This document shows positions 37,799 through 39,847 of a DNA stretch of 64,000 nucleotides, one piece after another (position 1 is the stretch's first letter; every line of letters starts with the position of its first letter). The stretch is taken from contig SDNP01000001.1 of NCBI GenBank assembly GCA_004524445.1, positions 64,001 to 128,000 of the forward strand. The letters are read 5' to 3'. The notes below the pieces were generated by a model. That model did no database searches. It was not told where the DNA came from and saw only the letters and a program-made list of their open reading frames with translations. The stretch comes from Candidatus Thorarchaeota archaeon (GTDB lineage: Archaea > Asgardarchaeota > Thorarchaeia > Thorarchaeales > Thorarchaeaceae). A program made the position numbers and the translations under genes.

Positions 37799-39847
37799 AT
37801 GATGGAATTCGATATATCAAAAGCTATGAGAGTAAAGTTGTCGGATAAATTACCACCGTATCCGAAATTTGACTTGAAATACAGGAGAGCCCCTAACCGG
37901 GGATACGACCTTGATTATGACGATACAATTACAGCAGTTAAGAATGCATTAAGGTATGTGCCTAATAATCTCCAGAGTGAGGTAGCGCCAGAATTCTTGG
38001 ATGAACTAATGACCCGCGGAAGAATCTATGCATATCGCTACCGTCCTCCTGGAGTAATAAAGGCGAAGCCAATCGACGAATATGAAGGCATTCTGGAAGC
38101 CCGAGCACTGCAACTTATGATTGATAATAATCTAGATTTCGATGTTGCTTTATACCCATATGAGCTGGTAACTTATGGCGAGAGTGGTCAAGTCTGTCAG
38201 AATTGGCTTCAGTATCGACTGATCAAGAAGTATCTTGAAGTCATGACTGAAGAGCAAACGCTTGTTGTGAGTTCTGGGCATCCAGTAGGCCTATTTCCTT
38301 CTCACAGAAATGCTCCCCGAGCAATAACAACGAATGGCCTAATGGTAGGAATGTTTGACACCCCTCAAGATTTTCACAGATCAACTGCCCTCGGCGTCGC
38401 GAATTACGGACACATGTCAGCAGCTCGCTGATATGCCGTAGAAATGACCGCCGGAGGTTGGATGTACATTGGTCCACAGGGGATTGTTCACGGGACCTAC
38501 ATTACCCTGTTGAATGCTGGACGGCTCTACCTTGATATTCCTGCAGACCAAGATCTTGCTGGCGTACTCTATGTCAGCTCTGGTTTGGGAGGAATGAGTG
38601 GTGCCCAGGCAAAGGCAGTGGAGATATCTGGTGGCATTGGTGTAATTGCTGAGGTAGACAAGAGCAGAATTAAAACACGCAGTGAACAGAATTGGCTCTC
38701 TCTTTGGTCAGATGATTTAGATGAAGTCTTTGAGTGGGTGGACAAACATAGAAAGTCAAAGAGAGCGGTTTCCATTGGGTATCATGGCAATATTGTAGAC
38801 GTTTGGCAATATGTGGTGGATAATAACATCAAAGTAGAACTTGCCTCTGACCAGACATCGTGTCATGCTGCATATGAAGGCGGCTACACACCACAGGGCG
38901 TTTCGTTTGAAGAGGGTCGTGAGATACTGAAGAATGATAGAGAGAAGTTCAAGAAATTAGTGGACGAATCATTGCGTAAGCAATTTGACCTCATAAAGAC
39001 CATGACGGAACGTGGCACGCACTTCTGGGACTATGGTAATAGCTTCATGAAGGCTGTCTTCGATGCTGGTGTCAAAGAGATAGCGAAGAACAATGAGAAT
39101 ACTAAGGACGGATTCATCTTCCCGTCATATGTAGAAGACATCATGGGTCCAATCTGTTTCGACTATGGGTATGGCCCTTTCAGATGGGTTTGTCTGAGTG
39201 GGAACCATGATGACTTAATCAAGACGGATGAAGCAGCCATGTCTTGTATTGACCCTGAACGAAGAGGTCAGGATCGGGACAATTATGTATGGATTCGTGA
39301 TGCAGATGAGAATGACCTGGTTGTGGGTTCCGAGGCCCGCATATTGTATGCCGATGCAGCGGGACGGGCAACCATTGCACTGAAGTTCAATGAACTCGTA
39401 AGAAAGGGTGAGATCGGACCTATCATGCTAGGCAGAGACCATCATGACACAGGGGGCACAGATTCTCCGTTTCGAGAAACCTCCAACATTTATGACGGAA
39501 GTAGAATAACCAGCGATATGGCGCATCAATGTTGGGCAGGCAATGCCGCTCGAGGCATGACAATGTGTGTGTTGTCTAATGGTGGCGGTGTAGGAGTCAG
39601 CAAGGCAATCAATGGAGGTTTTGGACTGGTTCTTGATGGTTCTGAAAGAGTTGATGACATTATCAAATCTGCGATTAATTGGGATGTTATGGGTGGCGTT
39701 GCAAGGCGTGCTTGGGCAAGAAATCCACACGCAATAGAAACTTCTATTGATTGGAATAGTACTGTTGCCACAAAGGGCCAAATCACACTACCCTTCATTC
39801 CAGAGGAAGGCCTTATCGAACGACTGGTCAGAGAAAAACTGGACTAA
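37799..39847 (+). CDS. hutU: Urocanate hydratase, long eukaryote-like type; spliced CDS join(37799..38411,38442..39847), about 672 aa
   Basis: Two same-frame ORFs with urocanase motifs (NNLDFDVALYPYELVTYG; MTAGGWMYIGPQGIVHGT; GLGGMSGAQ; SDQTSCH; GPFRW; GRDHHD; RETSN). Removing 38412-38441 gives GVANYGQMTAGG. Confidence 0.93.
38412..38441 (+). other. 30-nt bulge-helix-bulge (tRNA-type) intron in hutU mRNA
   Basis: Central helix ACGG(38406-09)/CCGU(38436-39); bulges ACA(38410-12) and AGA(38440-42); 9-bp intron stem; exon stem; in-frame UGA at 38429-31; canonical cleavage recreates a CAA Gln codon. Confidence 0.88.

What the first reader, a model, noticed from the sequence alone, without database searches (positions are those of the whole stretch)
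38391..38454. Canonical bulge-helix-bulge intron interrupting a protein-coding gene (hutU) in a probable Asgard archaeon
Seen in sequence: the two urocanase ORFs are in the same frame and separated by an exact 30-nt insertion containing a TGA. The RNA folds as exon stem AUU(38403-05)/AAU(38443-45), extended by GUC/GAC and CGGC/GCCG; 4-bp helix ACGG/CCGU; two 3-nt bulges ACA and AGA on opposite strands; and intron stem CAUGUCAGC/GCUGAUAUG (9 bp, one G-U) with a 5-nt loop. Cutting after the second nucleotide of each bulge removes 38412-38441 and joins ..TAC GGA C|AA ATG ACC, giving Y-G-Q-M-T, the conserved urocanase motif. Established: this geometry is the substrate of the archaeal tRNA splicing endonuclease EndA, with ligation by RtcB, and mRNA BHB introns are best known from crenarchaeal cbf5. 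Inference: hutU is not a pseudogene but is spliced by the tRNA machinery, which would be a metabolic-gene mRNA intron in the lineage closest to eukaryotes.
Basis: partly seen in the sequence, partly recalled or inferred. Interest (0 to 1): 0.96.

Follow-up and report, generated by a model that had tools for sequence, protein, structure and literature searches.

The report
tRNA-type mini-intron in Thorarchaeota urocanase gene
The only urocanase (histidine breakdown) gene of this Asgard archaeon is interrupted by a 30-base hairpin with the shape of the cell's own tRNA and rRNA introns, so its mRNA very probably has to be spliced by the tRNA-splicing enzymes, which published work shows for only one other archaeal protein gene.

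Summary
hutU is split at 38412-38441 by a 30-nt insert carrying an in-frame TGA. Cutting two bases into each 3-nt bulge rebuilds the conserved Y-G-Q-M-T motif exactly.

The organism is a Thorarchaeote. Of 77 family genomes with hutU, 8 from five genera carry the insert at the same site; the rest have only the Gln codon.

- **Covariation:** seven base pairs change on both sides, including one exon-intron pair (TAC/G to TAT/A).
- **Exon adaptation:** the 30 nt of exon upstream are tuned to pair with the downstream exon, in intron-bearing alleles only.
- **Selection:** the gene is under strong purifying selection (dN/dS 0.04). The intron evolves far more slowly than synonymous sites.
- **Architecture:** the same 1+9+5+9+4+2 nt layout occurs in this genome's 16S rRNA and tRNA introns.
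- **Machinery:** a two-gene EndA and RtcB are present.
- **Artefact check:** an independent DNA run confirms the insert.

No RNA contig spans the junction, so splicing itself is inferred. In the literature I could search, the only published counterparts are crenarchaeal cbf5 and a Haloferax 5'UTR. Earlier agents of this scan reported similar mini-introns in other Thorarchaeota genes (rpo, tfb, EF-1alpha, ahcY); I did not check those here.

The parts
37781..38411 (+). hutU exon 1. The ORF opens at GTG 37781; the likely start is ATG 37799 or 37802. It ends with the first base (C) of the Gln codon, so this is a phase-1 intron.
   Evidence: Pfam Urocanase_N, E 1.6e-45; translation.
38412..38441 (+). 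30-nt BHB mini-intron: 1 nt of bulge 1, a 9-bp stem with a 5-nt loop, the 4-nt 3' strand of helix H, and 2 nt of bulge 2. It carries an in-frame TGA at 38429-38431.
   Evidence: Sequence; the same insert at the same site in 8 genomes; covariation; covariance model hits at E 1e-10 to 1e-14 on these 8 only.
38442..39847 (+). hutU exon 2. It begins with AA, completing the CAA Gln codon, then M-T-A-G-G, and runs to the stop codon.
   Evidence: Pfam Urocanase Rossmann plus C domains. Its first Met aligns with residue 132 of Pseudomonas putida urocanase 1UWK.
38403..38405 (+). Exon helix h, 5' strand (AUU), pairing with 38443-38445 (AAU).
   Evidence: Paired in 100% of cells; U-A changes to U-G in 3 alleles.
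38406..38409 (+). Central 4-bp helix H, exon strand (ACGG), pairing with intron bases 38436-38439 (CCGU).
   Evidence: Pair 31-62 covaries, C-G in 5 alleles and U-A in 3. The exon side is a synonymous Tyr codon change, TAC to TAT.
38410..38412 (+). Bulge 1 (ACA). The predicted 5' cut lies between 38411 and 38412.
   Evidence: Unpaired in every fold; invariant in 8 alleles.
38413..38435 (+). Intron hairpin h': 9 bp (38413-21 with 38427-35) and the loop AGCUC (38422-26).
   Evidence: 6 of 9 pairs change on both sides across the 8 alleles.
38440..38442 (+). Bulge 2 (AGA). The predicted 3' cut lies between 38441 and 38442.
   Evidence: Geometry read from the sequence. The MFE pairs 38440-41 instead.
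38381..38399 (+). Outer exon-exon helix, 5' strand. It pairs with 38445-38465 in exon 2.
   Evidence: RNAalifold consensus. 13-15 of 15 pairs form in intron-bearing alleles against 7-13 in 32 intronless ones. This is the only 30-nt window that is more alike among intron-bearing alleles, 0.86 against 0.62.
38445..38465 (+). Outer exon-exon helix, 3' strand. It is protein-constrained (M-T-A-G-G-W-M).
43123..44682 (+). hutH (histidine ammonia-lyase), intact. It is the pathway partner of hutU.
   Evidence: Pfam Lyase_aromatic, E 3e-203.
48807..49940 (-). hutI (imidazolonepropionase), intact.
   Evidence: NCBIfam TIGR01224, 490 bits, over the curated cut-off, at G000:C24:112807-113940.

Best explanation
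This is a genuine archaeal bulge-helix-bulge (BHB) intron inside the coding sequence of the single urocanase gene of a Thorarchaeote.

**Proposed mechanism**
1. The pre-mRNA folds so that about 19 nt of exon 1 pair with exon 2. This long exon helix presents a 3-bp helix h, a 4-bp helix H flanked by two 3-nt bulges, and a 9-bp intron hairpin.
2. The heteromeric (alpha-beta)2 splicing endonuclease EndA cuts two bases into each bulge, after 38411 and after 38441.
3. RtcB joins the exons, rebuilding the CAA Gln codon and one 683-codon reading frame.
4. Unspliced mRNA ends at the intron's TGA after 216 residues.

**Shown:** the structure, its conservation and covariation, exact frame restoration in 8 alleles, purifying selection on gene and intron, the presence of the enzymes, and the same architecture in the genome's rRNA and tRNA introns.

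**Inferred:** cleavage, ligation and translation of the spliced mRNA.
For: **Geometry and product**
- The geometry is exact, and the rule-predicted cuts restore Y-G-Q-M-T.
- The same insert sits at the same phase-1 site in 8 of 77 hutU-bearing Thorarchaeota genomes from 5 genera. One is 29 nt long, so it would shift the frame unless removed from the RNA.

**Selection on the RNA structure**
- 94.5% of pair cells form standard pairs, against 27-51% with slid partners.
- 7 pairs change on both sides, 0 of 500 shuffles reach the covariation score, and one covarying pair joins exon to intron.
- Only intron-bearing alleles keep 13-15 of 15 pairs in the outer exon helix. The effect is confined to the 30 nt upstream of the intron.

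**Selection on gene and intron**
- The spliced frames are open in all 8 alleles. dN/dS is 0.038 at dS 0.94 between G000 and G001.
- The intron is 30/30 identical between these two although only 50% of 4-fold sites are. Between genera it is 40-87% identical against 23-34% at 4-fold sites.
- hutU is single-copy, and hutH and hutI are intact.

**Machinery**
- There are two EndA genes, each with N-terminal and catalytic domains. The closest solved structure is the Aeropyrum pernix heterotetramer.
- RtcB is present.
- Asgard EndA is the broad-specificity (alpha-beta)2 type (PMC5829648).

**Context in this genome**
- The same h3-H4-B3-9bp-5nt-9bp-H4-B3-h3 layout, excising 30 nt, occurs in two 16S rRNA introns, two tRNA-Cys introns and one tRNA-Gly intron.
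- An independent DNA run from another study has a 908-nt contig across the site with no gap.
Against: - No spliced junction read or contig from this strain was obtained. RNA runs were available only as contigs, and none crosses 38107-38590.
- The nearest-neighbour MFE does not form the second bulge. The strict BHB fold is 4-6.5 kcal/mol less stable.
- Helix h is only three A-U/G-U pairs.
- Two alleles (G008, G079) have an A.C mismatch in the outer pair of H.
- Covariation counts come from 8 related sequences, so they overstate independence.
- The outer exon helix was derived from the intron-bearing alleles themselves, which favours them in the comparison.
Confidence: 0.86

Rival explanations
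1. The gene is split into two separately translated polypeptides, an N-terminal fragment of 216 aa and a C-terminal fragment of 467 aa starting at ATG 38444. These would assemble into an active urocanase, and the hairpin would be an intercistronic element.
For: Exon 2 begins almost at an ATG (38444), and all 8 alleles keep it. The intron always carries a stop in the exon-1 frame.
Against: - That ATG is the universally conserved Met of Q-M-T-A-G, so it says nothing about initiation.
- A split would lose the invariant Gln and add 6 foreign residues next to the active-site region.
- No Shine-Dalgarno-like sequence precedes the ATG (GCCGUAGAA).
- An intercistronic hairpin does not explain covariation of an exon-intron pair in a 4-bp helix with two 3-nt bulges, nor the layout shared with rRNA and tRNA introns.
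Confidence: 0.05
2. hutU is a pseudogene, or a gene recently inactivated by a small palindromic insertion that has no function.
For: An in-frame stop interrupts a conserved enzyme. Most relatives (69 of 77) lack the insert.
Against: - The insert is retained in five genera whose synonymous sites are saturated, with no second lesion in any of 8 alleles.
- dN/dS is 0.038 between two intron-bearing species.
- The insert itself evolves under constraint, with compensatory changes.
- The flanking exon is adapted to it.
Confidence: 0.03
3. The element is a real BHB intron, but its removal is conditional. Splicing efficiency would act as a switch for histidine catabolism, or the excised and probably circularised 30-nt RNA would have a role of its own.
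For: - Conservation exceeds what pairing alone needs. The apical AGCA..GYU and the loop AGCUC are kept in 5 of 8 alleles, and the intron is 30/30 identical in G000 and G001 against 50% at 4-fold sites.
- All 8 introns keep a stop at the same codon.
- The BHB fold competes with a more stable alternative register.
Against: - There are no expression data.
- The stop-codon pattern is weak statistically: about 0.1 by chance, given purines at both positions.
- Slow evolution is expected in a 30-nt element in which 22 nt are paired.
Confidence: 0.15
4. The insert is an assembly or binning artefact, or it is skipped during translation by ribosomal bypass, as in phage T4 gene 60.
For: A hairpin with a stop lies just after a GGA codon, which superficially resembles a take-off site.
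Against: - The insert is present in 8 independent MAGs and in an independent run's contig.
- There is no matching GGA landing codon.
- Bypass would not regenerate the conserved Gln, whereas splicing does so in all 8 alleles (C+AA or C+AG).
Confidence: 0.01

Closest known systems
cbf5 pre-mRNA BHB intron of Crenarchaeota (Desulfurococcales, Sulfolobales; Watanabe 2002; Yokobori 2009, PMC2738675)
   Same: - A short BHB intron inside the coding sequence of a protein gene.
[quoted passage not shown]
- Patchy presence and absence among relatives, read as lineage-specific loss.
   Different: - Another phylum (Asgard, Thorarchaeota).
- Another kind of gene: a catabolic enzyme, not an RNA-modification enzyme.
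- No sequence relation between the introns.
- A long exon-exon helix made by codon choice accompanies the intron here.
- Splicing has been shown experimentally for cbf5, not here.
BHB mini-introns of this genome's own 16S rRNA and tRNA genes
   Same: The layout and size are identical: h 3 bp, H 4 bp, two 3-nt bulges, a 9-bp stem and a 5-nt loop, with 30 nt excised. The enzymes are presumably the same.
   Different: - The host RNA is an mRNA, so the cut must also preserve the reading frame.
- There is no sequence similarity between the introns.
- The covariance model of the hutU intron finds no other copy in 86 genomes.
BHB intron in the 5'UTR of Haloferax volcanii HVO_1309 mRNA (PMC7714728)
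   Same: An mRNA substrate of archaeal EndA.
   Different: It lies in the untranslated leader, not in the coding sequence. Haloferax also has the strict alpha'2 type of enzyme.
Unconventional cytoplasmic splicing of HAC1/XBP1 mRNA in eukaryotes (from my own knowledge, not tested here)
   Same: A small intron is cut from an mRNA at paired stem-loops by a protein endonuclease. The exons are joined by a tRNA ligase, which is RtcB in animals.
   Different: The endonuclease is Ire1, not EndA/TSEN. The substrate structure differs, and the splicing is regulatory. Regulation is not shown for hutU.

Membership tests
Archaeal BHB (hBHBh') intron, substrate of EndA | Two 3-nt bulges on opposite strands, separated by a 4-bp helix. 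| tested here: met
   ACGG/CCGU lies between ACA and AGA, and this is kept in 8 alleles. Two caveats apply: the outer pair is A.C in 2 alleles, and the MFE prefers another register for the 3' side.
Archaeal BHB (hBHBh') intron, substrate of EndA | Flanking helices h (exon side) and h' (intron side). | tested here: met
   h is 3 bp, continued after a 4-nt bulge by an exon helix of about 15 bp. h' is 9 bp.
Archaeal BHB (hBHBh') intron, substrate of EndA | Cutting at the fixed bulge positions yields a functional mature RNA. | tested here: met
   The frame and the conserved Gln codon are restored exactly in 8 of 8 alleles, including the 29-nt one.
Archaeal BHB (hBHBh') intron, substrate of EndA | The structure is maintained by selection (compensatory changes). 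| tested here: met
   7 pairs change on both sides. Slid controls reach 0-3 such pairs, and 0 of 500 shuffles reach the covariation score.
Archaeal BHB (hBHBh') intron, substrate of EndA | The host encodes the splicing endonuclease and the RtcB ligase. | tested here: met
   Two EndA genes at C49:30457-30711 and C33:108054-108314, and RtcB at C19:21708-23018.
Archaeal BHB (hBHBh') intron, substrate of EndA | Cleavage by EndA, and a spliced RNA or excised intron observed. | not testable with these tools
   Only contigs of the RNA runs could be laid, and none from this strain spans the site.
Pre-mRNA BHB intron (cbf5 type) | It lies within the coding sequence and interrupts the reading frame of a gene that is otherwise under purifying selection. 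| tested here: met
   TGA at 38429-31; dN/dS 0.038; single copy.
Urocanase (HutU) | Urocanase N-terminal, Rossmann and C-terminal domains in one chain, with the NAD-site motif. | tested here: met
   The three Pfam domains are spread over the two exons. GLGGMSGAQ is present. The best solved relative is 6UEK, E 5e-126.
Mobile or repeated mini-intron family (same sequence in many genes) | Further copies of the same intron sequence elsewhere in the genome or in relatives. | tested here: not met
   Covariance model R1 finds only the 8 hutU sites in 86 genomes. Hits at E 0.08-0.9 are unrelated sequences.

The most novel reading that the evidence does not exclude
Thorarchaeota carry a class of 30-nt BHB mini-introns that has spread from tRNA and rRNA genes into protein-coding genes. 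In hutU the exon has co-evolved, through codon and conservative amino-acid choice, to build its own anticodon-stem-like helix. The intron plus this 30-nt exon patch behaves as an allele that is exchanged or lost among related species. Splicing by EndA/RtcB may be conditional, which would make this an archaeal counterpart of HAC1/XBP1-type regulated mRNA splicing in the lineage closest to eukaryotes.
Probability: 0.2. Interest if true: 0.92.

Novelty: new member of a known kind. Interest (0 to 1): 0.74.

Why it matters
**State of the literature.** Since 2002 the only published archaeal intron of this type inside a coding sequence has been cbf5 of Crenarchaeota. A 2020 survey still lists it as the only one, beside one 5'UTR case (PMC7714728). 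A 2026 preprint on Asgard tRNA introns does not mention mRNAs.

**What this case adds.**
- It shows a well-supported case in a metabolic gene of an Asgard archaeon.
- The exon sequence is adapted to the intron.
- Presence and absence turn over quickly among close relatives.

**Practical consequence.** Gene callers split or discard such genes in Asgard MAGs, so metabolic reconstructions (here the Hut pathway) will be wrong.

**Conceptual consequence.** Protein-enzyme mRNA splicing is in routine use in the archaeal lineage closest to eukaryotes. That bears on the origin of TSEN/RtcB-dependent mRNA processing and on how introns are gained and lost. The question becomes directly testable with one RT-PCR and one in vitro cleavage assay.

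Tried and rejected
**1. Genome-wide search for other coding-sequence introns in G000**
- The strict scan required H 4/4, h 3 or more and h' 5 or more, with lengths 12-160 nt. It gave 7059 motifs, of which 107 join open frames, against 103-119 with deliberately shifted cuts.
- The relaxed scan (26-35 nt) gave 24, against 25-32 in controls.
- Neither scan shows enrichment, and only hutU is convincing.
- These scans miss in-frame stop-less introns, introns within 70-100 codons of a gene end, and bulge-helix-loop forms.

**2. Candidate at C25:5478-5512**
- It is a 35-nt motif with a 10-bp stem.
- It was rejected because the unspliced frame reads straight through a repeat protein.

**3. Metagenome pattern scan**
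- The pattern was AATTAYGGACASRNNNYAGCA. That scan was wasted.

**4. RNA runs**
- Salt-lake metatranscriptome contigs hold near-identical pieces of hutU: 37803-38106, 38591-38738 and 39625-39810.
- None crosses the intron.
- Intronless junction contigs in X4 and X6 come from relatives about 90% alike, so they say nothing about splicing.

**5. Weak covariance-model hits** (E 0.08-0.9) are unrelated sequences.

**6. Homologues outside the family.** 80 hutU loci from other Asgard lineages and bacteria show no insert at this site; one contig starts exactly at the junction.

**7. Explanations considered and rejected** (reasons under the rivals): ribosomal bypass, split protein, pseudogene and assembly artefact.

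**8. Single-sequence folding** does not return the two-bulge fold.

**9. Gain versus loss** could not be decided.
- The gene tree needs 7 changes, and intron-bearing alleles sit beside intronless sisters.
- Intron sequences follow the genera, which suits old inheritance with many losses.
- The 30-nt exon patch disagrees with the gene tree in all four sister comparisons tested. That fits either exchange of a short patch or selection on the structure.
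Full report
**Observation**

The window holds a urocanase gene in two same-frame ORFs, 37781..38431 and 38444..39847. Exon 1 carries the Pfam Urocanase_N domain. 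Exon 2 carries the Rossmann and C-terminal domains.

Read through, the frame gives ...V-A-N-Y-G-H-M-S-A-A-R-stop-Y-A-V-E-M-T-A-G-G-W.... Removing 38412-38441 gives N-Y-G-Q-M-T-A-G-G.

- helix h, 38403-05 with 38443-45;
- helix H, 38406-09 with 38436-39;
- bulges 38410-12 and 38440-42;
- a 9-bp hairpin, 38413-21 with 38427-35, with a 5-nt loop.

The region folds much better than shuffled sequence (z -3.9 and -4.0).

Two details need stating. The cut is ambiguous by one base from the product alone, because A38412 = A38442. The minimum-free-energy fold keeps bulge 1, H and the hairpin but lengthens H by two pairs. This places the 3' cut site at the edge of an internal loop. The strict two-bulge fold lies 4-6.5 kcal/mol higher in all alleles. 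The broad-specificity endonucleases tolerate this kind of departure, but it remains a caveat.

**Organism and machinery**

The window is contig 24 of a 2.79-Mb, 64-contig genome. Contigs of family members that also appear in the named collection are titled Candidatus Thorarchaeota (A361, LCG1B.62, AB_25).

The genome encodes two separate splicing-endonuclease proteins of 187 and 209 aa. Each has the N-terminal and catalytic domains. The first is closest to the catalytic subunit of the Aeropyrum pernix heterotetramer (3P1Z_B, E 7.5e-50). RtcB is present.

Published work assigns Asgard archaea the (alpha-beta)2 EndA with the loop that confers broad substrate range (PMC5829648).

**Not an artefact, not a pseudogene**

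- A contig of 908 nt from a DNA run of a different study covers 37949-38856 with no gap.
- hutU is single-copy in the genome.
- hutH (43123-44682) and hutI (48807-49940, minus strand) are intact nearby.

**Comparative evidence**

Of 86 genomes of the family, 77 have hutU. Eight carry an insert at exactly this site:
- G000 and G001 (genus g1);
- G008 (g8);
- G096 (g12);
- G049 and G050 (g7);
- G079 and G080 (g2).

All others examined have only CAA or CAG there. So do 79 hutU loci from other Asgard lineages and bacteria.

Seven inserts are 30 nt. G079's is 29 nt, so it cannot be tolerated as an in-frame insertion.

In an alignment of the eight (A1), the named structure forms standard pairs in 94.5% of cells. 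With slid partners the figure is 27-51%. Seven pairs change on both sides, and no shuffle of 500 reaches the covariation score.

Six of the covarying pairs are in the intron hairpin. The seventh joins exon and intron in helix H. Where the Tyr codon is TAC the intron has G, and where it is TAT the intron has A. That is hard to explain except by selection for the BHB fold.

All eight spliced frames are open. dN/dS between G000 and G001 is 0.038 at dS 0.94.

The intron is identical (30/30) in these two species although only half of the four-fold sites are. Between genera, four-fold sites are saturated (23-34% identical) while the introns remain 40-87% identical.

**The exon is adapted to the intron**

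RNAalifold extends the structure outward into a long, interrupted exon-exon helix, 38381-38399 with 38445-38465.

The 3' strand is fixed by the protein sequence (M-T-A-G-G-W-M). The 5' strand is free to vary. In the eight intron-bearing alleles it forms 13-15 of the 15 pairs. In 32 intronless alleles it forms 7-13.

Along 600 nt of the gene, only the 30 nt directly upstream of the intron are more alike among intron-bearing alleles of different genera. The values are 0.86, against 0.62 to intronless alleles and 0.61 among intronless alleles.

In four comparisons, an intron-bearing allele resembles its intronless sister in every window except this one. Within that window the unpaired third-codon positions vary freely among intron-bearing alleles, while paired positions are kept or change compatibly.

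I read this mainly as selection for an anticodon-stem-like exon helix. A short co-transferred patch is not excluded. The helix was derived from the intron-bearing set, which biases in its favour. The window analysis does not depend on it.

**History**

On a tree of the spliced gene, the intron-bearing alleles are scattered and follow the genera. At least 7 changes are needed, and well-supported branches force them.

Intron sequences also follow the genera: g1 and g12 share one type, and g2, g7 and g8 share another. This suits an old intron with many precise losses. Repeated local exchange of an intron-plus-flank patch would also fit. I could not decide between these.

In two further assemblies (G020, and AB_25 = G054), contigs end exactly at the junction. 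This would be expected if both forms coexist in those populations. I did not test it.

**Relation to the genome's other introns**

Aragorn predicts introns in 19 of 34 tRNA genes, many of 30-35 nt.

It has a 30-nt insert inside the universal GAAACUUAAAGGAAUUGGCGG motif.

That insert, a second one in the 16S gene, two in tRNA-Cys and one in tRNA-Gly share one layout with the hutU intron. The layout is h 3 bp, H 4 bp, 3-nt bulges, a 9-bp stem and a 5-nt loop, with 30 nt excised.

They share no sequence with the hutU intron. A covariance model of the hutU intron finds only the eight hutU sites in 86 genomes. The hutU intron therefore belongs to a structural class that this cell splices routinely. 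It is not a multicopy element.

**Other coding-sequence introns in this genome**

Two motif-plus-frame scans found no excess over shifted-cut controls and no second convincing case. Their sensitivity is limited.

**RNA**

Metatranscriptome contigs from salt-lake samples contain pieces of this hutU at 99-100% identity. This is a weak hint of expression. None spans the intron. Splicing itself is therefore inferred.

**Position in the enzyme**

The first residue of exon 2 aligns with residue 132 of the Pseudomonas putida enzyme. The intron therefore splits the codon of Gln131, two residues before Thr133. From memory, and unchecked, I recall Thr133 as a substrate-site residue. A read-through or truncated product is unlikely to be active.

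**Comparison with what is known**

In the library I could search, BHB introns in mRNAs are reported only for crenarchaeal cbf5 (coding sequence; PMC2738675) and Haloferax HVO_1309 (5'UTR; PMC7714728, which names cbf5 as the only other case). Papers on Asgard EndA and tRNA introns (PMC5829648; bioRxiv 10.64898/2026.10.13.758758) do not mention mRNA introns.

Earlier agents of this scan reported similar 30-nt introns in other Thorarchaeota genes: rpo1N, rpoA2, tfb, EF-1alpha and ahcY. I did not re-test those. They suggest that hutU is one member of a wider, unpublished phenomenon.

**Verdict**

This is a new member of a known kind. My confidence that it is a spliced BHB intron is about 0.86.

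Noticed in passing
G000:C9:96280-96309 and C9:96754-96783 (L157:2375-2404 and 2849-2878), outside the window: The 16S rRNA gene carries at least two 30-nt BHB mini-introns with the same 1+9+5+9+4+2 layout. The first interrupts the universal GAAACUUAAAGGAAUUGGCGG motif. The gene is 109 nt longer than the Rfam model.
   Followed up: partly
G000:C40:25199-25228 and 25238-25267 (tRNA-Cys); C40:32970-32999 (tRNA-Gly): tRNA-Cys has two 30-nt introns only 9 nt apart. Aragorn predicts introns in 19 of 34 tRNA genes, and it finds only 34 tRNA genes, so heavily interrupted genes are probably missed.
   Followed up: partly
L013 and L024 (G020 contigs C117 and C34); L028/L117 (G054 = Thorarchaeota AB_25 contig MEHG01000079.1): In two other assemblies, contigs end or start exactly at the hutU intron site (CAA|ATG...). 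In G020 the two contigs overlap by about 54 nt. This is what a branch in the assembly graph would give if intron-bearing and intronless forms coexist.
   Followed up: no
window 38429-38431 and the same codon in L002, L012, L108-L111, L113: All eight hutU introns carry a stop (TGA, TAA or TAG) at the same seventh codon of the read-through frame. Given purines at both positions, the chance value is about 0.1, so this is not established as selected.
   Followed up: partly
L156 (G002:C6:40361-40397): A 14-nt string identical to the apical part of the hutU intron (CAGCAGCTCGCTGA) lies inside an open frame of another genome. The covariance-model E-value is 0.9, so it is probably chance.
   Followed up: partly
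L014 (G002), L143/L114 (G052), L115 (G101), L116 (G053): In several intronless relatives the open frame upstream of the junction is shorter (524-557 aa instead of about 680), and my fixed-frame extraction met stops. This points to possible indels, frameshifts or other interruptions in the N-terminal part of hutU.
   Followed up: no
G000:C49, near 39412-39437: Aragorn predicts a tRNA-Sec (TCA) gene in this genome.
   Followed up: no
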